Assembly: GCA_963771905.1 (NCBI GenBank)
Contig: CAVYVI010000014.1
Coordinates: 287,339 to 351,338 of the forward strand
DNA length: 64,000 nt
DNA from: an uncultured Acidobacteriota bacterium
GTDB lineage: Bacteria > Acidobacteriota > Terriglobia > Acidiferrales > UBA7541
Direction: 5' to 3'
Shown piece by piece: positions 1,393 to 11,509 of this stretch. Each line of letters starts with the position of its first letter. Position 1 is the first letter of the stretch. The translations under genes were made by a program, and so were the position numbers. The notes under the pieces are model-generated. The model had not been told where the DNA came from. It did no database searches and saw only the letters and a list, made by a program, of their open reading frames with translations.

Positions 1393-2529
1393 ATGAGCTC
1401 TCGAGAAATCTATCCCGGATGGGGTCAGCCGCCCTGGAAGATTGATTTCACGCCGCGCCGGCGACGTCTGCCGAAGGAAGTCGACTTCGCCATAATCGGA
1501 GGCGGCTTCACGGGGCTCGCCGCTGCCGCTTGGCTGCGCCATCTCGCGCCGGACAAATCCGTCGCCGTCTTCGAAGCGGGGCGCATCGGCGCGGGCGCGA
1601 GCGGGCGAACCGGAGGAATGGTGCTTGCCGGCACGGCGTCTGGCGGTCAGCGCGGCCTCGGCGACGTTCTCGCTGGGTTTCAGTCCATCTTGAAGCGCCT
1701 GCGCGTGCGGTGCGATCTCTCGCTTTCCGGCGCGTGGGAGATCGGCCGGAGCGGTTCCAAATGCAAAGACTCGCCGATCTCCTGGGAGGATTCGGGAACT
1801 CTGCGTGTGACCAAAGAAGTGCCCGGCGGCACGCTCGATCCCGGCAAACTTGTGAGCGGCCTCGGGCGCGCAGCCGAGCGCGCGGGTGCGCTCATCGCCG
1901 AACGCCAGCCGGTACAGCGCGTGTCATGGAGCGCATTTCCGGAACTCGAATTCGCAGCGGGGAAGTTGCACGCGAAGAAAATCCTGTTCGCGATGAACGC
2001 GATGTCGCTCGATCTTAGCGGTCTCGGCGAGGACATGCACCCGCGATTGACGCTTGCCGCTTTGACCGCGCCCGTATCCGAAAGATTGCTCGCCGCCGTC
2101 GGTCTCGCCGCCCGAAAACCGTTCTACACCGTCGATTTTCCGTACCTCTGGGGCCGCGTGCTCAAAAATAATTCGGTGATGTTCGGAGCCGGTCTGGTCG
2201 CCTCGCCCGACGAGAACGATCTTGCGGGCGTTGACATCGCATCGGCCGAGCCCGCGCGCATGTTTGACACGCTCGAGGGCCGCGTCCGCCGCATGCATCC
2301 AGCGCTCACGAATATTCGCTTCACGCGCCGTTGGGGCGGCCCCATTCTCTTCCGCGACAATTGGACGCCGGTCTTCGATTGGCATCCCGCCAGCCGCAAC
2401 GCCATCATCCTCGGCGCCTATGCCGGCCACGGCGTCGCGTTGTCGAGCTACCTCGCCGCCTGGGCCGCGGAAGCTCTCCTCGGCCGCCGCAAACTGCCTG
2501 CCTGGGGCGCCGTCCGCGTCGCGCGCTGA
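1393..2529 (+). CDS. FAD-dependent oxidoreductase (DAO family)
   Basis: N-terminal Rossmann dinucleotide motif DFAIIGGGFTGLAAAAWL. Length (378 aa) and a C-terminal GHG-type segment (YAGHGVALS) fit DAO-type flavoenzymes. Substrate unknown. Confidence 0.75.
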   Translation: MSSREIYPGWGQPPWKIDFTPRRRRLPKEVDFAIIGGGFTGLAAAAWLRHLAPDKSVAVFEAGRIGAGASGRTGGMVLAGTASGGQRGLGDVLAGFQSILKRLRVRCDLSLSGAWEIGRSGSKCKDSPISWEDSGTLRVTKEVPGGTLDPGKLVSGLGRAAERAGALIAERQPVQRVSWSAFPELEFAAGKLHAKKILFAMNAMSLDLSGLGEDMHPRLTLAALTAPVSERLLAAVGLAARKPFYTVDFPYLWGRVLKNNSVMFGAGLVASPDENDLAGVDIASAEPARMFDTLEGRVRRMHPALTNIRFTRRWGGPILFRDNWTPVFDWHPASRNAIILGAYAGHGVALSSYLAAWAAEALLGRRKLPAWGAVRVAR

Positions 2530-2543
2530 GCTCGTTCAACCTC

Positions 2544-3356
2544 TTAGTTCACCCTCATCCGCAATTCCTCCGCAAACTTCTCGATCCGATTCACCGGAAC
2601 AACCGCTATCTTTTGCTCTTCGAAGAGCCGCGCCACGAATTGGTGCCGCGGATTTTCGCGCGCGGGTTCGGCCTCCGTGAACGCGGTGAACTCCGTCTTC
2701 GGCACGCGCGCCCGGATGCATTCCGCCGTGTACGCCAGCACCTTTGCCTGCGACGCATCTCGCGCCAGAGAAAACGCTTGGATGTAGCCGCGCGTCCCGT
2801 TCGAGCCGTAGCCGTAATCGAGCCGCATGGGATCGCCCGGCTGGGTGAACTCCTCGACGCGTACGCTCCTTTCCATACGCGCCAGTATCCGGTGGCGGCG
2901 AAAAACGTCGCTCAATTTCGACCGCAGCCACGCCCGCATATTTTCGAGCACGCCGGCGCGTCCCGCGAAGTGCGGCGGCGCCACGTGCTCGCGGTAGAGT
3001 CGCTCCAACTCCGCGTCGAAATCTTCGGCCAGCAGCGCTCTCTGCGGGCTGAATTGCAGGGCGTTCGACAGCGAGTCATCGAGCTTCGCGAGATACGCCG
3101 CCGCATCCGCAGCGCCCGCCACGCGCGCGTCCATTTCGGCCGGCAGCGCGCGCAGCAACGATTCATCGAACGCCGGATGGAGGCGTTTCACGCGCGCGAA
3201 CTCGGCCGTTTCTTCGATCGTCCGCGCCGCGCGCCGCTGGCCCGCCGCGTCTTCCAGGATCACGCCGATGTTGATCCACTCGTCGCGGACCACATTCGGC
3301 ATGTAGCGGAGAATCCGATACTTCAGAGTGTGCAAATTATCTTCTGGCATAGTCAC
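2544..3356 (-). CDS. DUF3037 domain protein (uncharacterised), partner of the upstream HipA-like kinase
   Basis: The N-terminus LKYRILRYMPNVVRDEWINIGVILED matches, from memory, the hallmark start of the DUF3037 family. GTG start at 3356 or ATG at 3350. The long + strand ORF 2331..4313 opposite is an antisense artefact. Confidence 0.75.
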   Translation of the reverse strand: MTMPEDNLHTLKYRILRYMPNVVRDEWINIGVILEDAAGQRRAARTIEETAEFARVKRLHPAFDESLLRALPAEMDARVAGAADAAAYLAKLDDSLSNALQFSPQRALLAEDFDAELERLYREHVAPPHFAGRAGVLENMRAWLRSKLSDVFRRHRILARMERSVRVEEFTQPGDPMRLDYGYGSNGTRGYIQAFSLARDASQAKVLAYTAECIRARVPKTEFTAFTEAEPARENPRHQFVARLFEEQKIAVVPVNRIEKFAEELRMRVN

Positions 3357-3503
3357 ATCCCGTTTAGAAAGGATGAGCGCGACGCTTTCCCCGCGCCGGG
3401 AATCAATTCAGCCCGCAAACTTCCCGCCGTCAAATCTCGCCCAGATTCACACTTCAGCACAAGACTTCCTCCTCCGGCGTGTGCAGATTGTCCTGTGCCA
3501 CGT

Positions 3504-4325
3504 TCACGTCCAGTTCGGAAAGGGTATGCGAGAGGATTTCCACGCGGCGCGAATCAGTTCGGGCACCAAAGTCCGCCGCCGGTACAGTTGTTCGAGCATG
3601 CGATACAGCGCGTCCGGCTCGAAATTGTACCACTCGGGTGGAACCGCGCTGGCCGCTTCGTCGAGCGCTCCCGGATCGAGCGCCTTCAGCCGCTCGAGCC
3701 ACGGCTCGAACGCCTCCATCCCGCGAACGCGCTCGTATACCAGTTGCCGCGTATAAATCCCGCGCAGCGGCGCGTCGGGAAAATTCCATTCTCCGGCGTT
3801 GAAGCAAAAGCCGTGGTCGATCATCACGGCGCGGTATTTGCTCTCGTGCGGCGGCCGGAAGAAAATCGCCTGCCGTCCGTTGGTGTTGCACGTCCACTTG
3901 TCGAACACCAGCACGCCGGCAAAGCTGTCGAGATTCTGCACATCGCGGAGCTGCTCGTCGGGAAGGAAATCGTATACGACGGTCGTAGCCGGAGCGTCGG
4001 GATAGCGCGAGCCAAATTGCATTCCGGTCGAGCACGGCTCGTGACCGCGCCCCAGTTGAATCACCAGATCCTCGGTATTCGCAATCAATTCGGCGCGGAC
4101 TTCCACCACCGCCGCGCTCGCCACAGGCAATCCCAATCGTCCCGCCAATCTCGTACCCAGCAATTCGTTCGCCAGGATCCTCACTCCCTGCGGGTTGTTT
4201 CGAAACTTGACAACGTAATAGCTATCGTCCGCGCAGCGCATCAGATGCGCCTGCGCTCCTCCGCGCATCCTCCGGACCTGTTCGACCGCCAACGGCATCC
4301 GCGCGTATGCTAACGAGCGGCCCAA
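3504..4325 (-). CDS. HipA-like (HipA_C / PI3-4-kinase-fold) family kinase, stand-alone 273 aa
   Basis: N-terminal string RMRGGAQAHLMRCADDSYYVVKFRNNPQGVRILANELLGTRLAGRLGLPV. Catalytic-loop-like FDKWTCNTNGRQ and Mg-loop-like MIDHGFCF. All are typical of short HipA-family kinases. Alternative start at M10 (4298). Confidence 0.7.
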   Translation of the reverse strand: MGRSLAYARMPLAVEQVRRMRGGAQAHLMRCADDSYYVVKFRNNPQGVRILANELLGTRLAGRLGLPVASAAVVEVRAELIANTEDLVIQLGRGHEPCSTGMQFGSRYPDAPATTVVYDFLPDEQLRDVQNLDSFAGVLVFDKWTCNTNGRQAIFFRPPHESKYRAVMIDHGFCFNAGEWNFPDAPLRGIYTRQLVYERVRGMEAFEPWLERLKALDPGALDEAASAVPPEWYNFEPDALYRMLEQLYRRRTLVPELIRAAWKSSRIPFPNWT

Positions 4326-4421
4326 GCCACCGCAAGAAAAAGATTCTCAGATTGGGAACGTAACAGAGTGAAACACTTCGGAGGGTTTCTCTGCAGGCAA
4401 ACCAAACCGGAATTCCAGCAG

Positions 4422-4449
4422 CCGGAGCGCACAATCCCGGGCGCTCCGG
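4422..4449 (-). terminator. GC-rich hairpin downstream of the small acidic/basic protein gene (possible terminator)
   Basis: Perfect 9-bp inverted repeat ccggagcgc / gcgctccgg with a 10-nt loop, 19 nt after the stop at 4468. There is no clear U-tract, so intrinsic termination is uncertain. Confidence 0.4.
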
Positions 4450-4467
4450 TGCCGCAAAAATTCGCGA

Positions 4468-4785
4468 CTATCTCTTTCTCTTCTTGGCTTTTTTCTTCGG
4501 GCGCGCTTTCGCTTTGGCCCGCTTCTTCTTTTTCGCTGGCGCCTTCTTCGCTTTCCTGCGGGCTTTCTTCGCAGCCGGCTTCCGGGCGGGCTTGGCCTTC
4601 GGACGCGTAGGCGCCGGCGGCGCCGGACGGCCAGCGGGAATCTCTTCGGGCTCGTCTTCATCGACTACGATGATCTCGTCGGTCTCTTCCTCGACGATCT
4701 CCGCGGGCCCGCCCAGTTCGTCTTCCTCTTCCTCGTAGCGGGGCAAATCCTCGCCGTCGTCGTCGTGCATCTTCGCGTAAAACAT
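4468..4785 (-). CDS. Small bipartite protein: acidic N-terminal half, Lys/Ala/Pro-rich histone-H1-like basic C-terminal half
   Basis: ATG is preceded by GGAGG (ggaggtagcATG). 105 aa: MFYAKMHDDDGEDLPRYEEEEDELGG...DEDEPEE, then PKAKPARKPAAKKARRKAKKAPAKKKKRAKAKARPKKKAKKRKR. A consensus-like promoter lies upstream. The overlapping ORFs 4347..4661(-) and 4484..4738(+) are low-complexity shadows. Confidence 0.7.
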   Translation of the reverse strand: MFYAKMHDDDGEDLPRYEEEEDELGGPAEIVEEETDEIIVVDEDEPEEIPAGRPAPPAPTRPKAKPARKPAAKKARRKAKKAPAKKKKRAKAKARPKKKAKKRKR

Positions 4786-4837
4786 GCTACCTCCGTCGGG
4801 GTCACCCTATGCTGGCCGGGCTCCCTTACCCTTCGCG

Positions 4838-4867
4838 CTTATAGACGGAGAGTCCGAGCTTTGTCAA
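4838..4867 (-). promoter_or_regulatory. Sigma-70-like promoter for the small acidic/basic protein gene
   Basis: The minus strand reads TTGACA-N18-TATAAG (TTGACA = 4867..4862, TATAAG = 4843..4838). It lies about 50 nt upstream of the ATG at 4785. Confidence 0.45.
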
Positions 4868-5010
4868 GACGCAAGCGATTGTGGCCAAAAGATTTCCGCG
4901 GAAACACTTGAGACGGGGGATCGCACGTGCAGATTTCTTATAACGTTCCTATAATCAGTTAGTTACCATGCGTATATGAAGCTTGGCCGTAGGGATTCGC
5001 CGCGCTACGT

Positions 5011-6918
5011 CTACTTCTTGGGCGCAACGACCAGCAAGTCGCCCACTTCGAGGGCGCGATTGTTGAGCGCGGGATTCGCGCTGCGCAGGGCATCCACGCT
5101 CGTCCCAAACTGGCGCGCGATCGAATATAGCGTCTCGCCCGCCTTCACCCGGTACTGCACAGGGTCGGCGGGAGCGGCCTTGGCATCACGGACCGCGACG
5201 CTTTGCATCTGGCCGCTCGCGTCGGATTGCGCCGACTTGCCTTTCGTATGCGCGGTCGTCGAAGGGTCGCCGCCCGCGTAGATCCGCAGCCGGGCGCCGC
5301 GTGGCGCCTGACTTCCGCGAATTCCGTTCCAGCGTTTGAGGTCCGCCACCGTCACCGAAAATTGCTCGGCGATCCCCGCAAGCGTGTCACCGCGGCGCAC
5401 CCGATAATGCACCAATTGCAACTGCGCGGGCATCGCGGCTGGAATCGTCAGCTTTTCTCCCGGCGCTATATCCGTTGCCGAGGCGAGATGATTGGTCTGC
5501 TCGATCGCCGCCGCGGTCACCTTATAATGCTTGGCGATCGCCGCAAGCGTCTCGCCTTCACTCACCTCATGAATCCGCCAGCTTTTCCATTTGTCCGGCG
5601 GAATCCCCGCGATGGCGGCGTTGAAGGGTGCGGAGGTTCCCGGCGGAAGCCGCAGCGTGAAATTCGAATCATCCGGCGTGACCAGTCGCAGCAGTTCCGG
5701 ATTCAGCATCCGCAGATCGTCGAGTTCCGTGCCGGTTGCATCGGCCACCAGCCGCAGATCGATCGGATGTCCCGGCTTCACCGAATCCACGTCCGGCGGT
5801 TTGTCCGGATCCACTTGCACGCCGTAGAGGGCCGGATCCTTCGCCACCAGCGCCAGCGCCAGAATAATCGGAACGTAGTTCTTCGTCTGCGTTGGCAGGG
5901 CGTTGCGCTTCTGAAGCTCCCAGAAATCCGCATATCCGGTCCGCTCGATCGCCTTCGCCACATTTCCCGGGCCGGAATTGTATGCCGCCATCACCAGATA
6001 CCAGTCGCCGAACATAGCGTAGAGATCGCGCAGATGATGCGCCGCCGCGTGCGTGGCTTTCTCGGGATCGCTGCGCTCGTCGATGTACCAGCTTCGCCCG
6101 AGGTCGTATTCCTCGCCGCGATACGGCATGAATTGCCAGATTCCGCGCGCGCCCGCCCGCGATACCGCCTGAGGTTGGAACGCTGACTCCGCCTGCGCCA
6201 AATAAATCAAATCCTGCGGCACGCCTTCTTCCTTCAGGACTCTCCGAATCATGTCGTGATAACGCCCCGCGCGCCGCAAGCCGGTCTCGACGATGGCGCG
6301 CCCGCGCTCGGTCTGGAAGAAGCTCAGGTACTGCAGCACCGAATCGTTCACCGTCAACGGCAGGTCGTGCGGCACCCGCATCAATTCCTGCTCGGCTTTT
6401 TCCGCGAGGCGGGGGTCCCCCGGCGGCAGTGTCGACAAGTCCGCAATTTCATCAATTGGCGCCGGCTCGGCCATTTCATCCGCGCCTTCGGTCTTCGCAA
6501 TCTGCGCGTCTTCGAGCGCGTCCGCGTGCATGGTGTCGAGGATTTGGTCGAACAGCGCGGCGAGTTGCACGTCGCTATCCACCGGGATGCCGCTCGACAT
6601 CACCAGGCTGATGGCCGCATTAAATTTCACGCGCGCCTCGTCCATTTTTCCGGCTTCGAAAGCTGCCTGCCCGGCGTTCAGATCTTCCTGCATCTTGGCC
6701 ATCAGGGTGTCGACAGCTGGACGCCGATCGAGAAGGTCGTACCCTGCGAAGGGCTGGTAAGGAGGGAACGGCAGAATCTCGGCCTGTTGCGGCGCATGCG
6801 TTGGCACCGGGACATTCGGGCGCACCTGGACGGCGTGCTTCGCCGTATCCTCGCATCCGCCGAGCAGCAAGACCGCCGCTCCGAGCGTCAACGCCGCTCT
6901 GAATTTGCCGCGAACCAT
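5011..6918 (-). CDS. Membrane-bound lytic murein transglycosylase (MltD-like) with C-terminal LysM repeats; lipoprotein
   Basis: SLT catalytic region (LAQAESAFQPQAVSRAGARGIWQFMP, AAYNSGPGNV). Three LysM-like repeats (HEVSEGETLAAIAKHY.., YRVRRGDTLAGIAEQF.., YRVKAGETLYSIARQF..). The likely start is M23 of the track ORF (MVRGKFRAALTLGAAVLLLGGC = lipobox); the track ORF extends to 6984. Confidence 0.85.
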   Translation of the reverse strand: MVRGKFRAALTLGAAVLLLGGCEDTAKHAVQVRPNVPVPTHAPQQAEILPFPPYQPFAGYDLLDRRPAVDTLMAKMQEDLNAGQAAFEAGKMDEARVKFNAAISLVMSSGIPVDSDVQLAALFDQILDTMHADALEDAQIAKTEGADEMAEPAPIDEIADLSTLPPGDPRLAEKAEQELMRVPHDLPLTVNDSVLQYLSFFQTERGRAIVETGLRRAGRYHDMIRRVLKEEGVPQDLIYLAQAESAFQPQAVSRAGARGIWQFMPYRGEEYDLGRSWYIDERSDPEKATHAAAHHLRDLYAMFGDWYLVMAAYNSGPGNVAKAIERTGYADFWELQKRNALPTQTKNYVPIILALALVAKDPALYGVQVDPDKPPDVDSVKPGHPIDLRLVADATGTELDDLRMLNPELLRLVTPDDSNFTLRLPPGTSAPFNAAIAGIPPDKWKSWRIHEVSEGETLAAIAKHYKVTAAAIEQTNHLASATDIAPGEKLTIPAAMPAQLQLVHYRVRRGDTLAGIAEQFSVTVADLKRWNGIRGSQAPRGARLRIYAGGDPSTTAHTKGKSAQSDASGQMQSVAVRDAKAAPADPVQYRVKAGETLYSIARQFGTSVDALRSANPALNNRALEVGDLLVVAPKK

Positions 6919-7170
6919 GGTTTCACCCATCAAAATCAGTTTGCCTGACGCGCCCACCGAAATTTTCCGGACGCGCGTTCCCAATCAAACTTTTGATGCC
7001 AACGCGCGTCGCGGCGGCAGTCCTCTACCATCGATCCGTGTCGACACGTGTCAGTCCCGCCCCTAGGTAAGGGGTATCGAAAATTGTATGTGCTGGAGCG
7101 AAAGCGGGTCAATGGCCCGCGATCAAACCGGGGTGACTGAAAGAGGACACTGAAATAGGGCAGTCGCGTA

Positions 7171-8361
7171 CTACGCCAATGCTTGCCGGAGATCCTCGAT
7201 GAGATCTTCCGGATCCTCGAGGCCGATCGAAACTCGAACCGTCCCCGGTCCAACCGAGGCCTTCCGAAGCTCTTCCATCGACATATTGTAGTGCGAGGTG
7301 TAGATCGGCAGGACCACCAGCGATTCCACCCCTCCGAGACTCGCCGCCAGAAGGAAAATTCGCACCCGGTCGCAGAATCGCCGCGCGGCGGGCAGTCCGT
7401 CCTTGAGGTCAAACGCCATCATCGCGCCGAACCGCCGCATCTGCTTTTTCGCCAGCGCATGATCCGGATGAGAAGGCAACCCCGGGTAATGGACCCGCGC
7501 GACCTTGCGATGCTTCGAAAGCCATTTCGCGACGATCATCGCCGTCGCGCATTGTCGCTCGACGCGCAGTTCCAGCGTCTTCATCCCACGCATCAGCAAA
7601 AACGCGGCCTCGGGGTCCATCGATCCACCGAGGTTAATGATGTTGTGCCGCACTTCGGCGATCCATTTGCGGCTGCCTGCCACGGCGCCAGCGATCACGT
7701 CGGAGTGCCCGGCGAGATACTTCGTCGCGCTATGGCAGACCATGTCGAATCCCAACGCGATGGGCTTCTGGAGCACCGGGCTCGCGAACGTGTTGTCAAT
7801 CATCGTCACCAGACCGTGCTTCTTGGCAAAGGCCATGGCTTTTTCAAGGTTGACCAGCCGCAGCGTCGGATTCGTCGGCGATTCCACATACAGCGCCTTT
7901 GTCTTCGACGTGACCAGCTCTTCGATCCCCGCCAGATCGGCTTCCACCATCTTCACGCCGATTCCGAAGCGCGGGAACGTATCGCGCAGCAGACGATATG
8001 TGCCGCCGTACGTCTGCCGCGAGGCGATCAATTCATCGCCGCTCTCAACCGTCGCGAGCAGCGCGCTTGAAATCGCCGCCATTCCCGACGCCGCCACCAC
8101 CGCATCTTCGGCTCCTTCAAGCGCCGCCAGCTTCTTTTCGACAACCGCCAGCGTCGGATTGCCGTAGCGCGTGTATATATACGCGGAGCTTTTGCCCTCG
8201 GCCCAGCGCTTCATCTCCGCCGTGTTCGCGAACGTGAAGTTAGCCGTGCGCGCGATCATTGGTCCAACGGGAGCGCCGATGCCGAATCTTTCTTCGCCGC
8301 AATGGATCGCGGTCGTGGCATCTTTCCAGGTCTTGGACGAGGTCTTGGCCGATTTTTTCAT
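7171..8361 (-). CDS. Cys/Met-metabolism PLP-dependent enzyme (cystathionine gamma-synthase / gamma-lyase / methionine gamma-lyase family)
   Basis: PLP-lysine motif HSATKYLAGHSDV with family-typical flanks (YTRYGNPT, ESPTNP). I prefer the start at MKKSAK (8361), which has GGGAG upstream; the track ORF begins at 8403. Confidence 0.85.
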   Translation of the reverse strand: MKKSAKTSSKTWKDATTAIHCGEERFGIGAPVGPMIARTANFTFANTAEMKRWAEGKSSAYIYTRYGNPTLAVVEKKLAALEGAEDAVVAASGMAAISSALLATVESGDELIASRQTYGGTYRLLRDTFPRFGIGVKMVEADLAGIEELVTSKTKALYVESPTNPTLRLVNLEKAMAFAKKHGLVTMIDNTFASPVLQKPIALGFDMVCHSATKYLAGHSDVIAGAVAGSRKWIAEVRHNIINLGGSMDPEAAFLLMRGMKTLELRVERQCATAMIVAKWLSKHRKVARVHYPGLPSHPDHALAKKQMRRFGAMMAFDLKDGLPAARRFCDRVRIFLLAASLGGVESLVVLPIYTSHYNMSMEELRKASVGPGTVRVSIGLEDPEDLIEDLRQALA

Positions 8362-8524
8362 AAGCTCCCTTTTGTGGCGCACCGAGGATGTCCCGGCCCG
8401 CACTGCGGCACAAGCGCCAATTTGTACGGTTTGCGGCTGGGTATGCCCGCGCGGTCGCCCCGTTCGGCCATCGCTCGGGCCGCCGGTCAGCCAATCGCTG
8501 GGCGGGTAGGGAAGTCTTCTCAGA

Positions 8525-11509
8525 CTATTTCAGCGCGTCGACTTCTGCTTTGGCCGCATGGAAGACAGGGATATCGGGGTCGGCGTCCTTCCACGGTGTG
8601 AGGAACTCCTGGTATGCGGCTCGGGCCTTCGCGCGCGCAGCATCGGCGCCGCCTGTCGAGGATTTGGCTTCCAGAGCGTCGGCGCGGGCAAGTCCGAGGT
8701 GCGCGAGAACGCCGACCGCGCTGTTGAGCGCCAGGCTGCGGTGATCGAGGATCTTCTGAAACTCGGTCGCCGCTTCGGGACCACGAGATTCCGCCCGATA
8801 CGTTTCTCCTCGCAGATACACCGCATTCAGAGTCAAGAAGGATGGCGTATCAGAGAAAACGGCAAATTCGAGCGGACGCACCGCCTCGAGCTGCTCGAGG
8901 GCTTTCTCCGCCTCTCCGGCGTTGAGAGCCAACTGCGCGTTGATGGCAGGCAGCCAGTAGGATTGGACAAGCGTGTCGGACGGAAATCTCTTGCCGAGGT
9001 CTTGCGCAACAGACCGGGCCCGAGCCGTATCGCCAGCCAGCGCAAGGACGAATCCCGCCAGAGATTCGGAGTCATGACTGCCCGGCCCGAGAGCGAGAGC
9101 CGCCTCGGCTTGCTTCTTCGCTTCAGCCGAATTTCCGAAAAGCGCCTCTCGATTCGCACCGTAGGCTTGCCATAGCGCGGCTGCTTCCTTATTGTCCGTT
9201 TGCACTGCCGCGGCCACCGCGCGCTGCGTGAGTTCCCGGGCGTTCTTCAATCGGCCGTAGTAGGCCTCGGTGTCCGCTTCGCTGGCGAGCATTTCGTGTT
9301 TGAAATCGGAGTGGATGTCGAACCAGGCAACTTGCTCCGCCATCTCCTTGGTATTGTTCTTCAAGAAGGCGATATCGTAGGAATAGATGTGAAGCGGGTC
9401 GTCGTCCAAATTTCGCGCCAACGCACTCTGGATCTCCGTGCGCGCTTCATCGATACGCCCCAGGGCGATGTAACTCTCGGCCACATTATCGATGGCAATG
9501 ACGTCCGCGGGGTCCAGCCGTTTACTTTCGAGAGACGCATCCAGCGCCTTCTGATAGTCACCGAGCGCGAGATACCCGCTGCCGAGGTCGAGGAAGGCGA
9601 CGGGGTCCCGTGGGAAACTCTCCGTCCACTCCCGGAATGTCGCCACCGCTTTCGGCAAGTCGCCAGTCGTAGAATCGTAGTAGAGGGCGGAGATATGCAG
9701 CTTCTCGCGCTCGCTCGCATGCTCGCGGAGTTCGAAGGCCTTGGTCAAATACTCGTTCGCTCGTACGGGCTGGCCCATATTGCTGTACATGACGCCGACG
9801 CTCATGTAGGCGCTCGCAAAATTCGGATCGAGCTCCGACGCGCGTTGAAAGTACGGCAGCCCCGCCACCGATCCTTTTTCGCTGCTGGTCTTGATTGCCA
9901 GGCTGAAAGCCTTCAGGGCCTCAAGTGACGACGTTGTCGCTTGATCGAGCGGCACGTCGAACTTCCGGACTGACGCGAGCGACTCGCCGAGCTCGCCGCG
10001 CAACCTCGACGCCGCATCCCCCAGCGCATCCAGAACCTTTTCCTTTCCCGCAGCCGTCGCCTGTTCCTGCGCCAGCGTCTCCCCGTTGTCGCAGTTCACC
10101 GCCGTCAGCCCGATCACGTACTGGCTCCCGAGGCCGGCGATCGATCCCGCGATGTAGGCCTTGCTTCCCGCGCGCTCACATACTTCGCGCGCCACCTCCG
10201 GCGTCAGCGGCGTATTCGCCGACCGTGTCATCAAAGCCAGCATTGTTCCGACTTTTTCATCGGAAAGCACGTTCAGAAACGGCGATTGCCGCAGCGAGAC
10301 CGAAAGCGCCTGCTTCAGCGCGTCGTCAAATACCGGATCGCCCGTCGAGTTCGCAAAATCACCGATTACCACGGAATCCCGATCCGTCAGCACTGCCGCA
10401 TGATTTCGGCCCCTGAGCCACCAGACGCCGATTGCAATCGCCACAAGAACGGCCGCAGCAATCGCTGTCGTTGCCATTCTTCGGCGCGCGTCTCGTTTTC
10501 CGCCCTCAAAGGGAGCATTCGCAGCCGCCGATTTTCCTTTTGGCTCGCCCGGCGCTGCCATCGACGCGACGCCCGTCCCCACCACGGCGGAACTGGCAGA
10601 TTCCGCTACGACCCGGCTCGAATCCGTGTCGCGCTTCAGTCGCTGCAAGTCTGCCCGCAGATCAGAGGCGTGCTGGTAGCGCAAGGCGGGGTCTTTCTCG
10701 AGTGCCTTATTGATGATCTCTTCGAGTTTAGGCGGGACCTTCGCATTCAATCGCACCGGCGCCACGGGCGCACGATTCAGGATGGCGTCGAATATTTCAG
10801 CCGAAGTATTTCCGGGAAACGCCATCTGTCCAGTCGTCATTTCGTAGAACACAACGCCGAAGCTGAACAAATCCGATCGTGCGTCGAGTGCCCGGCCTCG
10901 CGCCTGCTCGGGCGACATGTACGCGACGGTTCCGAGCGCTGTGCCGGGGCTCGTGAGATCCAGTTCGCTCACCAACTGGCGGTCCTCCGTCGTGATCGGG
11001 TCGAGCGAAGCGTTCGGCGTCTCGAACGTCTTCGCCAAGCCGAAATCGAGCACTTTCGCCTGCTGGCGCGCCGTCACAAATATATTTGCCGGTTTGATGT
11101 CCCGGTGAATGATGCCCTTGGAATGCGCGGCATCGAGCGCGTCGGCGATTTGGATCGCAACGTTCAGCGCCACATCCAGAGGAATCGGCTTTCCCGAAAT
11201 GCGATGCTTGAGCGTCTCACCTTCAAGGAACTCCATCGCGATTACAGGCTGCCCGTCTGTTTCCGCGATTTCGTAAATTGTGCAGATGTTCGGATGATTC
11301 AATGCGGAGGCAGCGCGCGCTTCGCGCCGGAATCGCTCGAGCGCGGTGGAATCCCGCGTGACGTCAGCGGGCAATAACTTCAGCGCGACGAAGCGGCCGA
11401 GGCTGATGTCCTCGGCCTTGTAGACGACACCCATTCCTCCACCGCCGAGTTTCTCGACGATTCGGAAATGGGAAATGATCTGGCCGGAAGCGCGTTCGGA
11501 TTCAGGCAT
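8525..11509 (-). CDS. Ser/Thr protein kinase with a transmembrane segment and a large TPR-repeat sensor domain
   Basis: Hanks kinase motifs are present: [36 protein letters not shown]. One TM helix ([15 protein letters not shown]). A C-terminal half of about 550 aa has TPR-like repeats. Confidence 0.9.

What the first reader, a model, noticed from the sequence alone, without database searches (positions are those of the whole stretch)
2544..4325. HipA-like kinase + DUF3037 two-gene module: candidate toxin-antitoxin or defence-type system with no assigned function
Two same-strand genes form an isolated unit. It is bounded upstream by a GC hairpin (4422-4449) and downstream by a convergent gene whose stop lies 14 nt away. 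The first product (273 aa) has the strings of a short HipA/PI3-4-kinase-fold kinase: RMRGG...YVVKF...NELL..RLA..LGLPV, FDKW..N.NGRQ and IDHGF. The second product (270 aa) opens with the DUF3037 hallmark YRILRYMPNVVRDEWINIGVIL. HipA-family kinases are classically growth-arresting toxins neutralised by an adjacent partner. This architecture differs from hipBA or hipBST: the kinase comes first, the partner is a large non-HTH DUF protein, and a 147-nt spacer separates them. To my knowledge neither DUF3037 nor this pairing has an experimentally defined role. The catalytic loop reads N-T-N-G-R where I would expect N-x-D-R/H. So the kinase may be a variant or a pseudokinase, though my by-eye alignment could be off.
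Basis: partly seen in the sequence, partly recalled or inferred. Interest (0 to 1): 0.7.

Follow-up and report, generated by a model that had tools for sequence, protein, structure and literature searches.

The report
Chromosomally fixed HipA-like kinase/DUF3037 pair
This is a soil-acidobacterial copy of a two-gene kinase/partner module recently shown in E. coli to defend against phages, but here it stays at one chromosomal site across many species and carries Asn where the tested relative needs a catalytic Asp.

Summary
Both genes are real: a HipA_2 kinase (3504-4298, minus strand) followed by a DUF3037 protein (2544-3350, minus strand). The pairing is no longer uncharacterised. It is PADLOC candidate PDC-M66, and homologous pairs (DS-6/'HipAD' in E. 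coli, and the pair next to Retron-Sda1) defend against phages. In those systems the kinase acts as the toxin/effector and the DUF3037 protein as its neutraliser.

This copy is an unusual variant in four ways.
1. In 80 of 80 acidobacterial species genomes the pair is intact. It nearly always lies between an SLT-LysM transglycosylase gene and the E2 gene of a 2-oxoacid dehydrogenase complex. It diverges at the pace of those housekeeping genes, so it looks vertically inherited, not defence-island cargo.
2. The whole clade has FDKWTCNTN(140)GRQ, with Asn at the position of DS-6A Asp139, whose D139A mutation abolishes defence. The ATP-binding Lys and the metal-binding Asp are kept.
3. The partner's C-terminal half is a separate, highly conserved domain with a restriction-endonuclease-like (PD-(D/E)xK) fold. 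It shows no sequence similarity to DS-6B.
4. The 147-153 nt spacer is a decayed tandem duplication of the gene junction. The ancestral spacing is 3-4 nt.

Verdict: a new variant of a known kind, of moderate interest.

The parts
3504..4298 (-). HipA_2-family atypical Ser/Thr-kinase-like gene. It encodes 264 aa from the ATG at 4298; the ORF is open back to a TTG at 4325. Predicted active-site residues are K31 (YVVKF), N44-E45, D133, N138, R142-Q143 and D161 (MIDHG).
   Evidence: ORF list. Pfam HipA_2 E=7e-15. PADLOC PDC-M66A E=2e-13. AF2 pLDDT 96.5. Foldseek hits to Fam20C, PI4KII-alpha, CtkA and HipA. 29% identity to DS-6A, E=2e-16. Invariant residues from alignments.
3879..3881 (-). Codon AAC for Asn140, at the position of the catalytic Asp of relatives (DS-6A D139, E. 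coli HipA D309). It is one transition away from GAC (Asp).
   Evidence: BLASTP and hhalign alignments. The DS-6 D139A mutant loses defence. All 84 acidobacterial loci have FDKWTCNTNGRQ. Of 120 close homologues, 119 have N; of the 50%-identity cluster representatives, 112 have D and 22 have N.
3351..3503 (-). Intergenic spacer that is a decayed tandem duplication of the kinase/partner junction. Positions 3429-3353 copy the kinase 3' end (3581-3504). The first ~75 nt resemble the partner's 5' end, including a remnant reading 'GTG..AQDNLHT'.
   Evidence: 57 of 78 nt identical to the kinase 3' end, z=12.7 against 1000 dinucleotide shuffles. The 5' half matches the partner start at 45 of 78 positions; 6 of 1000 shuffles reach this. 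Relatives have a median spacing of 3.5 nt, and 47 of 82 have 15 nt or less. No Rfam family and no spacer homology with other long spacers.
2970..3350 (-). N-terminal DUF3037 domain of the partner (residues 1-127).
   Evidence: Pfam DUF3037 E=3e-17. PADLOC PDC-M66B E=1.9e-10, covering profile positions 2-164 of 281 only. hhalign to DS-6B residues 5-129, probability 93%. PHROG phrog_5137.
2544..2942 (-). C-terminal domain of the partner (residues 137-268, plus the stop codon). It is highly conserved (FTQPGDP..DY.Y..NGTRG...RD..QAKVLAYTA), has no Pfam model, and has a predicted restriction-endonuclease-like (PD-(D/E)xK) fold.
   Evidence: Conservation from alignments. AF2 pLDDT about 90 for this domain. 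Foldseek hits to Cdn1, Can2, Card1, AF1548, VC1899, BbvCI, EcoO109I and XPF and to viral PD-(D/E)xK/restriction-endonuclease proteins. No Pfam hit in 40 members. No similarity to the DS-6B C-terminus.
4422..4449 (-). GC-rich hairpin after the upstream 105-aa ORF. It is probably that gene's terminator, and it marks the 5' boundary of the kinase transcription unit.
   Evidence: Sequence. Fold at -32.2 kcal/mol, z=-1.75.

Best explanation
The locus is a two-gene operon of the HipA_2 kinase / DUF3037 family (PADLOC PDC-M66; E. coli DS-6, renamed 'HipAD').

Inferred mechanism, by homology with the tested members: the kinase is the growth-arresting effector. The downstream DUF3037 protein is made by coupled translation, binds the kinase and holds it in check. 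It may also bind DNA through its nuclease-like C-terminal domain. Phage infection is thought to disturb the complex so that the kinase acts and the infection aborts.

What is shown here:
- Both proteins are homologous to the tested systems.
- Gene order and adjacency are strictly conserved.
- The kinase fold and its ATP-binding residues are present.
- The partner has a two-domain build.

What is specific to this Acidiferrales/Terriglobia lineage:
- The pair is a long-resident, vertically inherited chromosomal fixture.
- The kinase carries Asn in place of the catalytic Asp. Its phosphotransfer is therefore probably strongly attenuated or altered, which may be what allows stable carriage.
- The 147-153 nt gap between the genes is a recent junction duplication with no evident function.
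For: Family assignment:
- Pfam HipA_2 and DUF3037, both above their curated cut-offs.
- PADLOC PDC-M66A at 2e-13 and PDC-M66B at 1.9e-10.
- 29% identity to DS-6A, E=2e-16. The DUF3037 domain aligns with DS-6B at 93% probability.

Published experiments on homologues:
- For the pair next to Retron-Sda1, deleting the kinase abolishes defence against phage Bas51 and deleting the DUF3037 gene is toxic (PMC12548924).
- DS-6 defends, D139A abolishes defence, and AlphaFold3 predicts an A-B complex with ipTM 0.76-0.79 (PMC13092281).

Linkage in this lineage:
- DUF3037 lies directly downstream of the kinase in 80 of 80 species loci.
- Median spacing is 3.5 nt, with 8-nt overlaps in four loci.
- Kinase and partner identities co-vary (Spearman rho 0.84).

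Kinase fold and residues:
- AF2 pLDDT 96.5, and Foldseek E-values down to 7e-7 against atypical kinases.
- K31, E45 and D161 are invariant.

Mobile relatives exist:
- An N-type pair lies between terminase and portal genes on a phage-like contig.
- Both proteins match PHROG families.
Against: - The residue whose mutation kills DS-6 defence is Asn here and throughout the clade, so a toxin-kinase mechanism may not apply unchanged.
- The context is not defence-like. The pair has a fixed position between SLT-LysM and the 2-oxoacid dehydrogenase genes (at least one of these neighbours in 55 of 57 loci). Its GC content matches the flanks. Its divergence rate is that of housekeeping genes.
- The partner's C-terminal domain does not match PDC-M66B or DS-6B at sequence level.
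- Close D-type kinases occur without any DUF3037 gene, so these kinases are not obligatorily toxic.
- No experiment exists for this clade, and the kinase substrate is unknown for the whole family.
Confidence: 0.55

Rival explanations
1. Domesticated regulatory module. In this acidobacterial lineage the former defence/TA pair has been co-opted for a host function. The Asn140 protein acts as a pseudokinase or ATP-binding switch (HER3-like, with very low or no phosphotransfer). It works together with the nuclease-like DUF3037 partner, for example in nucleic-acid or stress signalling, and not by killing infected cells.
For: - The pair is conserved across the order at one locus, and its divergence tracks that of E2 (rho 0.72, p=8e-10). 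Mean identity to the window is 65.8% for the kinase, against 69.8% for E2 and 72.5% for the Cys/Met-metabolism enzyme.
- The same locus in a more distant genome still holds a D-type kinase, so residence predates the D-to-N change.
- N140 is invariant in 84 of 84 loci, while the ATP-site residues remain invariant. This indicates selection on nucleotide binding, not decay.
- Position 140 is the only position that separates N-type from D-type proteins.
- The neighbourhood is housekeeping, with no mobile or defence genes.
Against: - N-type pairs also occur as cargo between the terminase and portal genes of a phage-like contig, and in an unrelated chromosomal context. Asn140 is therefore compatible with a mobile, defence-like lifestyle.
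- Long vertical retention is known for some TA systems. For example, the abstract of PMC10653801 describes HipBST as conserved across Legionella.
- Asp-to-Asn kinases can retain residual activity (general knowledge).
- No candidate host pathway is indicated by anything beyond gene neighbourhood.
Confidence: 0.3
2. The partner is the effector. The PD-(D/E)xK-like C-terminal domain of the DUF3037 protein is an active nuclease that does the damage, and the kinase-like protein is its sensor or regulator.
For: - Foldseek matches of the partner model to Can2, Card1 and Cdn1 nuclease effectors and to restriction endonucleases.
- The C-domain is the most conserved part of the partner, with invariant D173, D178 and K203.
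- Loss of the catalytic Asp in the kinase would matter less under this model.
Against: - In the tested homologue, deleting the DUF3037 gene is toxic and deleting the kinase abolishes defence. That is the opposite polarity.
- Structural matches are weak (TM 0.25-0.34).
- No canonical (D/E)xK triad could be placed on strand 3 of the model (secondary structure combined conservation; this is my inference).
- The C-domain is not shared with DS-6B at sequence level.
Confidence: 0.1
3. Classical hipBA-type persistence module, or two functionally unrelated neighbouring genes.
For: Weak similarity to HipA at the VAIK-like motif (PDB profile search E=0.23; Pfam HipA_C E=0.021).
Against: - The HipA_C hit is below its cut-off.
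- There is no HipB-like HTH gene, and the gene order is reversed.
- Adjacency in 80 of 80 loci and co-variation of the two proteins exclude chance neighbours.
Confidence: 0.03

Closest known systems
DS-6 / 'HipAD' of E. coli (DS-6A WP_000389051.1 kinase plus DS-6B WP_000210934.1 DUF3037 protein; DeWeirdt, Mahoney and Laub, Science 2026, PMC13092281; also cited there as Brenes and Laub, Cell Host Microbe 2025, which I could not read)
   Same: - HipA_2-type kinase gene first, DUF3037 gene immediately downstream on the same strand. DS-6 has a 4-nt overlap; relatives of the window have 3-4 nt.
- Kinase 29% identical (E=2e-16), with the shared motif VFDKW..N.(D/N).
- The DUF3037 domain is homologous (hhalign probability 93%).
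- Both partners are about 270 aa, with an extra C-terminal domain.
   Different: - The window kinase has Asn140 where DS-6A has Asp139, and D139A abolishes defence.
- The catalytic loop is shorter (NGRQ directly followed by the strand).
- The partner's C-terminal domain shows no sequence similarity to DS-6B (there annotated DUF1829 at HHpred probability 0.78).
- The context is a fixed housekeeping locus in Acidobacteriota, not a variable E. coli accessory region.
- There is a 153-nt spacer.
PADLOC phage-defence candidate PDC-M66, and the HipA-like/DUF3037 pair next to Retron-Sda1 (PLoS Biol 2025, PMC12548924)
   Same: - Both window proteins hit the PDC-M66A and PDC-M66B models.
- The two-gene architecture is the same.
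- In that paper the kinase behaves as toxin and the DUF3037 protein as neutraliser, and the pair works without the retron.
   Different: - The PDC-M66B model matches only the N-terminal 160 residues of the window partner.
- No retron RT or ncRNA is nearby, and no Rfam hit was found.
- In the Sda1 pair the C-terminus resembles the retron type III-A1 DNA-binding protein. That was not tested here.
HipBA / HipBST type II toxin-antitoxin systems (E. coli HipA)
   Same: - Atypical kinase fold of the same broad group (Foldseek HipA E about 1e-4 to 1e-3).
- Shared Lys and N-E motif.
- Toxin-kinase logic.
   Different: - Different Pfam family: HipA_2, not HipA_C/HipA_N.
- Much smaller (264 against 440 aa), with no N-terminal HipA domains.
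- No HTH antitoxin.
- The toxin gene comes first.
- TM-score to HipA is only 0.42-0.48, lower than to PI4KII-alpha or CtkA (0.54-0.61).
Pseudokinases with Asn at the catalytic Asp (for example HER3/ErbB3 'HRN'; from general knowledge)
   Same: Asp-to-Asn at the catalytic-base position, with the nucleotide-binding residues retained and under purifying selection.
   Different: Unrelated family. ATP binding and residual activity of the window protein are untested.

Membership tests
Pfam HipA_2 (PF20613) atypical kinases | Significant match to the family HMM above the gathering cut-off | tested here: met
   E=7e-15, 55.4 bits against a cut-off of 27, residues 17-239.
Pfam HipA_2 (PF20613) atypical kinases | Protein-kinase-like fold of the HipA/PI4K/Fam20/CtkA group | tested here: met
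   AF2 pLDDT 96.5, pTM 0.92. Foldseek hits: Fam20C E=7e-7, PI4KII-alpha TM 0.60, CtkA TM 0.59, HipA E about 1e-4.
Pfam HipA_2 (PF20613) atypical kinases | ATP-binding Lys, helix-C Glu and metal-binding (DFG-like) Asp | tested here: met
   K31 (YVVKF), N44-E45 and D161 (MIDHG) are invariant in alignments and in all acidobacterial loci where the motif could be read.
Pfam HipA_2 (PF20613) atypical kinases | Catalytic Asp in the N-x-D-x-R loop (DS-6A D139 = E. coli HipA D309) | tested here: not met
   The window has N140 (FDKWTCNTNGRQ), shown by BLASTP to DS-6A and hhalign to HipA. 84 of 84 clade loci have N. 112 of about 150 family representatives have D.
Pfam DUF3037 (PF11236) | Match to the family HMM above the cut-off | tested here: met
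   E=3e-17, 63.3 bits against a cut-off of 22.6, full model 1-118. All 40 aligned partners match.
HipAD / DS-6 / PDC-M66 two-gene defence system | HipA_2 kinase gene directly followed on the same strand by a DUF3037 gene | tested here: met
   Present in the window. Present in 80 of 80 species loci. DS-6 coordinates show the same order.
HipAD / DS-6 / PDC-M66 two-gene defence system | Both proteins match the PADLOC PDC-M66 models | tested here: met
   PDC-M66A E=2e-13 (profile 27-260 of 270). PDC-M66B E=1.9e-10, but only profile positions 2-164 of 281.
HipAD / DS-6 / PDC-M66 two-gene defence system | Partner C-terminal domain homologous to that of DS-6B / PDC-M66B | tested here: not met
   No alignment beyond residue about 128. 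hhalign of the C-domains gives probability 0.2%. No Pfam hit. A shared nuclease-like fold remains possible but is unproven.
HipAD / DS-6 / PDC-M66 two-gene defence system | Kinase toxic alone, neutralised by the partner; protection against phage | not testable with these tools
   Known only for the homologues (PMC12548924, PMC13092281).
HipAD / DS-6 / PDC-M66 two-gene defence system | Accessory, patchy or mobile genomic context typical of defence systems | tested here: not met
   Fixed housekeeping neighbourhood: SLT-LysM upstream in 58 of 68 loci, E2 downstream in 53 of 64, at least one in 55 of 57. GC content as in the flanks. No viral-contig hit and no phage-record hit. A 54%-identical relative does sit in a phage-like contig.
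Canonical HipBA type II TA | HipA_C/HipA_N domains and an upstream HipB HTH antitoxin | tested here: not met
   HipA_C E=0.021, 14.9 bits against a cut-off of 30.5. No HTH gene, and the partner lies downstream.
PD-(D/E)xK nuclease superfamily (partner C-domain) | Restriction-endonuclease-like alpha/beta core | tested here: inconclusive
   Foldseek hits to Cdn1 (E=4e-4), Can2, Card1, AF1548, BbvCI, EcoO109I and XPF, with TM only 0.25-0.34. Viral PD-(D/E)xK/restriction-endonuclease hits. Model pLDDT about 90 in this domain.
PD-(D/E)xK nuclease superfamily (partner C-domain) | Catalytic D...(D/E)xK residues in place | tested here: inconclusive
   Invariant D173 (PGDP), D178 and K203 exist. However, no acidic-x-Lys lies on predicted strand 3 (residues 186-192).

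The most novel reading that the evidence does not exclude
In Acidiferrales and related Terriglobia, a HipAD-type phage-defence/TA module has been captured as a permanent, vertically inherited chromosomal gene pair. Within that resident lineage the kinase's catalytic Asp was replaced by Asn while the ATP site stayed under strong selection. The pair would then act as a pseudokinase (or very slow kinase) plus a nuclease-fold partner. It would carry out either a host regulatory function or a non-mobile, 'hard-wired' form of immunity. That would be an example of defence-system domestication through attenuation of the toxin.
Probability: 0.3. Interest if true: 0.65.

Novelty: new variant of a known kind. 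Interest (0 to 1): 0.45.

Why it matters
The HipA_2/DUF3037 pair has only just been validated as an anti-phage system, and its mechanism, substrate and trigger are unknown. This acidobacterial clade offers a natural experiment. It has hundreds of diverged, vertically inherited copies in which the one residue shown to be essential in E. coli DS-6 is replaced, while every other active-site residue is kept.

If the Asn form is active, the assumed catalytic mechanism of the family needs revising. If it is inactive, this is a clear case of a toxin kinase turned into a pseudokinase and retained for another purpose. That bears on how defence and TA modules become domesticated in slow-growing soil bacteria.

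The well-conserved nuclease-fold C-domain of the partner also suggests what DUF3037 proteins might do beyond neutralising the kinase.

Tried and rejected
- NCBIfam gave no family for either protein.
- The profile search of PDB sequences gave only a weak HipA match (E=0.23) limited to the Lys/N-E motif, so fold comparison was needed.
I rejected it after hhalign to HipA and BLASTP to DS-6A both placed the catalytic Asp at position 140. D133 lies inside the preceding helix.
- A search for a compensating clade-specific residue found none. Only position 140 separates N-type from D-type proteins.
- The idea that N-type correlates strictly with the presence of a DUF3037 partner and D-type with orphan kinases was rejected. 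A D-type kinase with a partner occupies the same syntenic locus, and DS-6A is D-type with a partner.
- The spacer was tested as a possible ncRNA or regulatory element. There is no Rfam match, no stable fold (z=+0.74), no conservation with other long spacers and no excess of promoter- or terminator-like sites. It is explained instead by the junction duplication.
- The first genome scan, with the diverse kinase alignment, failed for lack of a conserved stretch. It was repeated with closer sequences.
- The viral-contig scan with the partner alignment found nothing. tblastn of the partner against 50,697 phage records found nothing. The kinase hit only one plasmid, an orphan kinase in a Peribacillus rfb cluster.
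- The Brenes and Laub 2025 paper on HipAD is not held in the library.
Full report
**1. The observation**

The two minus-strand ORFs exist as described.
- The kinase ORF runs 3504-4325 from a TTG. Homologues begin at the ATG at 4298 (MPLAVEQ...), which gives 264 aa.
- The partner ORF runs 2544-3356 from a GTG. The ATG at 3350 gives a 268-aa protein that is 100% identical to a database entry named 'DUF3037 domain-containing protein [Candidatus Acidiferrales bacterium]'. The kinase is 100% identical to 'HipA family kinase' of the same taxon.
- The organism is therefore an uncultured member of the order Candidatus Acidiferrales (Acidobacteriota, Terriglobia).
- Pfam places the first protein in HipA_2 (PF20613, E=7e-15) and the second in DUF3037 (PF11236, E=3e-17, residues 13-125), both above their curated cut-offs.
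- The 14-nt gap to the convergent FAD-oxidoreductase (DAO) gene is confirmed.
- The GC hairpin at 4422-4449 is confirmed, though it is only modestly better than shuffles. It follows the stop of the upstream 105-aa ORF, so it is most simply that gene's terminator.
- The N-T-N-G-R loop is confirmed.

**2. The pairing is already known**

PADLOC-DB has models for exactly this pair, PDC-M66A and PDC-M66B. Both window proteins match them (2e-13 and 1.9e-10).

Two papers give experimental content.
- In the operon carrying Retron-Sda1, a HipA-like kinase plus DUF3037 pair is a stand-alone defence system against phage Bas51. Deleting the kinase abolishes defence, and deleting the DUF3037 gene is toxic. 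[quoted passage not shown]
- DefensePredictor validated the E. coli system DS-6, renamed HipAD and said to have been found independently by Brenes and Laub in 2025. It consists of kinase DS-6A and DS-6B (DUF3037 plus DUF1829). A mutation of 'a key predicted catalytic residue' abolished defence, and AlphaFold3 predicted an A-B complex (PMC13092281). The supplementary tables give the sequences and identify the mutant as D139A.

Its general reading as a TA or defence-type kinase module is sound.

**3. The kinase**

- With a 26-sequence alignment, AlphaFold2 gives a very confident model (pLDDT 96.5, pTM 0.92).
- Foldseek against the PDB finds atypical kinases: Fam20C (E=7e-7), PI4KII-alpha (TM 0.60), H. 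pylori CtkA (TM 0.59), CotH, and HipA from Shewanella and E. coli (E 1e-4 to 1e-3, TM 0.42-0.48). The fold is confirmed. HipA itself is not the nearest structure.
- Across relatives down to 39% identity, the invariant residues are K31 (YVVKF), N44-E45, D133, W135, R142-Q143 and D161-x-G163.
- I first suspected that D133-x4-N138 was the catalytic loop. However, D133 lies inside helix 125-136 of the model. Two independent alignments also put the catalytic Asp at position 140. Profile-profile alignment to E. coli HipA pairs FDKWTxNxDxRQ with FQWLIGATDGHA, so HipA D309 corresponds to position 140 (probability only 42%). BLASTP to DS-6A (29% identity, E=2e-16) pairs VFDKWTCNTN with VFDKWILNAD, so DS-6A D139 corresponds to window N140.
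- The window kinase therefore has Asn exactly where the validated homologue needs Asp.

**4. The Asn is a clade character, not an error**

- Of the 120 closest database clusters (64% identity or more), 119 have N at this position.
- Of the 150 best representatives of 50%-identity clusters, 112 have D and 22 have N.
- All 84 acidobacterial loci in which the motif could be read carry the identical FDKWTCNTNGRQ, and they keep the YV(I)VKF Lys and the (M/I)IDxG Asp.
- Position 140 is the only alignment column that cleanly separates N-type from D-type proteins.
- A rough neighbour-joining tree puts D at the root and N in three or four clades.
- The rest of the ATP site stays invariant. This looks like selection for a nucleotide-binding protein with attenuated or altered catalysis, not like decay.

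**5. The partner**

- AlphaFold2 with 40 sequences (38-74% identity) gives pLDDT 84.8. The model has two domains joined by a low-confidence linker (residues 128-135): the DUF3037 domain (1-127) and a C-terminal domain (137-268, pLDDT about 90).
- The C-domain is the better conserved half (FTQPGDP.R.DY.Y..NGTRG...R...AK..AYTA).
- It has no Pfam model in any of 40 members.
- It is not covered by PDC-M66B and shows no similarity to the DS-6B C-terminus.
- Foldseek matches it weakly to PD-(D/E)xK nucleases: Cdn1, Can2, Card1, AF1548, VC1899, BbvCI, EcoO109I, XPF and R2 restriction-like endonuclease domains (TM 0.25-0.34, rmsd 3.3-4.5 A).
- In the viral library it matches two unnamed full-length phage proteins (E=4e-11 and 1e-9), followed by many 'PD-(D/E)XK nuclease' and 'restriction endonuclease' proteins.
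- Whether the domain is catalytically competent is unresolved.

**6. Genomic behaviour**

The 80 best are all Acidobacteriota, named Acidiferrales, Acidoferrum, Sulfotelmatobacter or Terriglobia.
- In 80 of 80 the DUF3037 gene lies directly downstream of the kinase.
- Where the flanks are long enough, the neighbours are as follows.

| Neighbour | Loci |
|---|---|
| SLT-LysM lytic transglycosylase gene upstream | 58 of 68 |
| E2 gene of a 2-oxoacid dehydrogenase operon, convergent downstream | 53 of 64 |
| At least one of the two | 55 of 57 |
| Both | 40 of 57 |

- Gene calls in related contigs show only housekeeping neighbours: EF-G-like, Cys/Met PLP enzyme, SLT-LysM, E1/E2/E3 and LplA.
- GC content of the pair equals that of its flanks.
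- Mean identity to the window proteins is as follows.

| Protein | Mean identity to window |
|---|---|
| Kinase | 65.8% |
| DUF3037 partner | 54.8% |
| E2 | 69.8% |
| Cys/Met enzyme | 72.5% |
| SLT-LysM | 55.6% |

- Kinase identity co-varies with E2 identity (Spearman rho 0.72, p=8e-10) and with partner identity (rho 0.84).
- A 54%-identical D-type kinase with its partner occupies the same SLT...E2 locus in a more distant MAG. The residence of the pair at this locus is therefore older than the Asp-to-Asn change.
- This is the signature of vertical inheritance under purifying selection, which is unusual for a defence or TA module.
- The family is not exclusively resident. A 54%-identical N-type pair lies between terminase-large-subunit and portal genes of a phage-like contig. 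Another N-type pair lies in an unrelated chromosomal context. Both window proteins match PHROG families.
- Close D-type kinases also occur without any DUF3037 gene: next to a TetR gene, in a resolvase/small-ORF region, and on a Peribacillus plasmid next to a glycosyltransferase.

**7. The spacer**

- Relatives have the partner's ATG 3-4 nt after the kinase stop. The median is 3.5 nt, 47 of 82 have 15 nt or less, and four overlap by 8 nt. DS-6 likewise has a 4-nt overlap.
- The 3' half of the window's 153-nt spacer (3429-3353) is 73% identical (57 of 78) to the last 78 nt of the kinase gene including its stop (3581-3504). This gives z=12.7 against dinucleotide shuffles.
- Its 5' half resembles the first 75 nt of the partner gene (45 of 78; reached by 6 of 1000 shuffles). 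It starts with a remnant reading GTG-AQDNLHT, against MPEDNLHT in the partner.
- The spacer is therefore a decayed tandem duplication of about 150 bp of the gene junction.
- It has no Rfam match, no stable fold and no similarity to the long spacers of other lineages.

**8. Interpretation**

*Shown here:*
- Homology of both proteins to the validated HipAD/PDC-M66 pair.
- Obligatory linkage of the two genes.
- An intact kinase fold and ATP site.
- Asn at the essential Asp position.
- A distinct nuclease-fold C-domain in the partner.
- A fixed, vertically inherited locus.
- The duplication origin of the spacer.

*Inferred:*
- The kinase-like protein and the partner form a complex in which the partner restrains the kinase.
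- The module responds to phage infection.
- The Asn form is a slow or altered enzyme whose reduced toxicity may have permitted permanent carriage.

The main rival is that the pair has been domesticated for a host function. That reading rests on the same synteny, evolutionary-rate and Asn evidence, and it cannot be excluded without experiments.

**9. Verdict**

As written, the finding describes a system that is already catalogued and experimentally validated in relatives. The specific copy is a new variant in four respects: catalytic Asp replaced by Asn throughout a large clade, a different partner C-domain, order-wide chromosomal fixation, and a junction duplication. Interest is moderate (0.45). 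It would rise if the Asn form proves to be a functional pseudokinase or uses different chemistry.

Noticed in passing
window 4468-4785 (minus strand): A 105-aa ORF between the SLT-LysM gene and the kinase. It has a strongly acidic N-terminal half and a Lys/Ala/Arg-rich, histone-H1-like tail (…KPKAKPARKPAAKKARRKAKKAPAKKKKRAKAKARPKKKAKKRKR). It has no Pfam or PHROG match. A gene of similar size (104-153 aa, no Pfam) sits at the same place in related loci (L001, L094). It is followed by the 4422-4449 hairpin.
   Followed up: partly
L091 / L092, positions 3269-10414: Phage-like metagenomic contig in which an N-type HipA_2 kinase (54% identical to the window kinase) and a full-length DUF3037 partner (32% identical) are inserted between the terminase large subunit and the portal gene. 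This is a typical position for phage accessory or defence cargo.
   Followed up: partly
L088, L095, L086 (plasmid NZ_CP133765.1, 53603-54379): 'Orphan' HipA_2 kinases that retain the catalytic Asp but have no DUF3037 neighbour. One lies next to a TetR regulator, one in a resolvase/small-ORF (mobile-looking) region, and one is translationally coupled to a glycosyltransferase beside an rfb (dTDP-rhamnose) cluster on a Peribacillus plasmid. The family is therefore not always a two-gene toxin/neutraliser unit.
   Followed up: partly
L097, positions 4777-5573: In one syntenic locus the DUF3037 gene is split over three reading frames and the kinase is truncated (240 aa). The contig comes from a long-read assembly, so this may be sequencing error and not a pseudogene.
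   Followed up: no
Spacers of L024, L032, L029, L025, L034, L036, L026, L042: Several other acidobacterial lineages have their own long kinase-partner spacers (146-582 nt). These are conserved within sub-lineages (74-85% identity) but unrelated to the window's spacer. The origin of these insertions was not examined.
   Followed up: no
window 2331-4313 (plus strand): A 660-aa open frame runs antisense across both genes. It has no homologue-based support and is best read as a shadow ORF of the GC-rich coding strand.
   Followed up: no
window 8525-11509 (minus strand): A 994-aa Ser/Thr protein kinase with a transmembrane segment and a long TPR-like C-terminal region lies two genes upstream of the SLT-LysM gene. 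It is not conserved at this position in most related loci.
   Followed up: no
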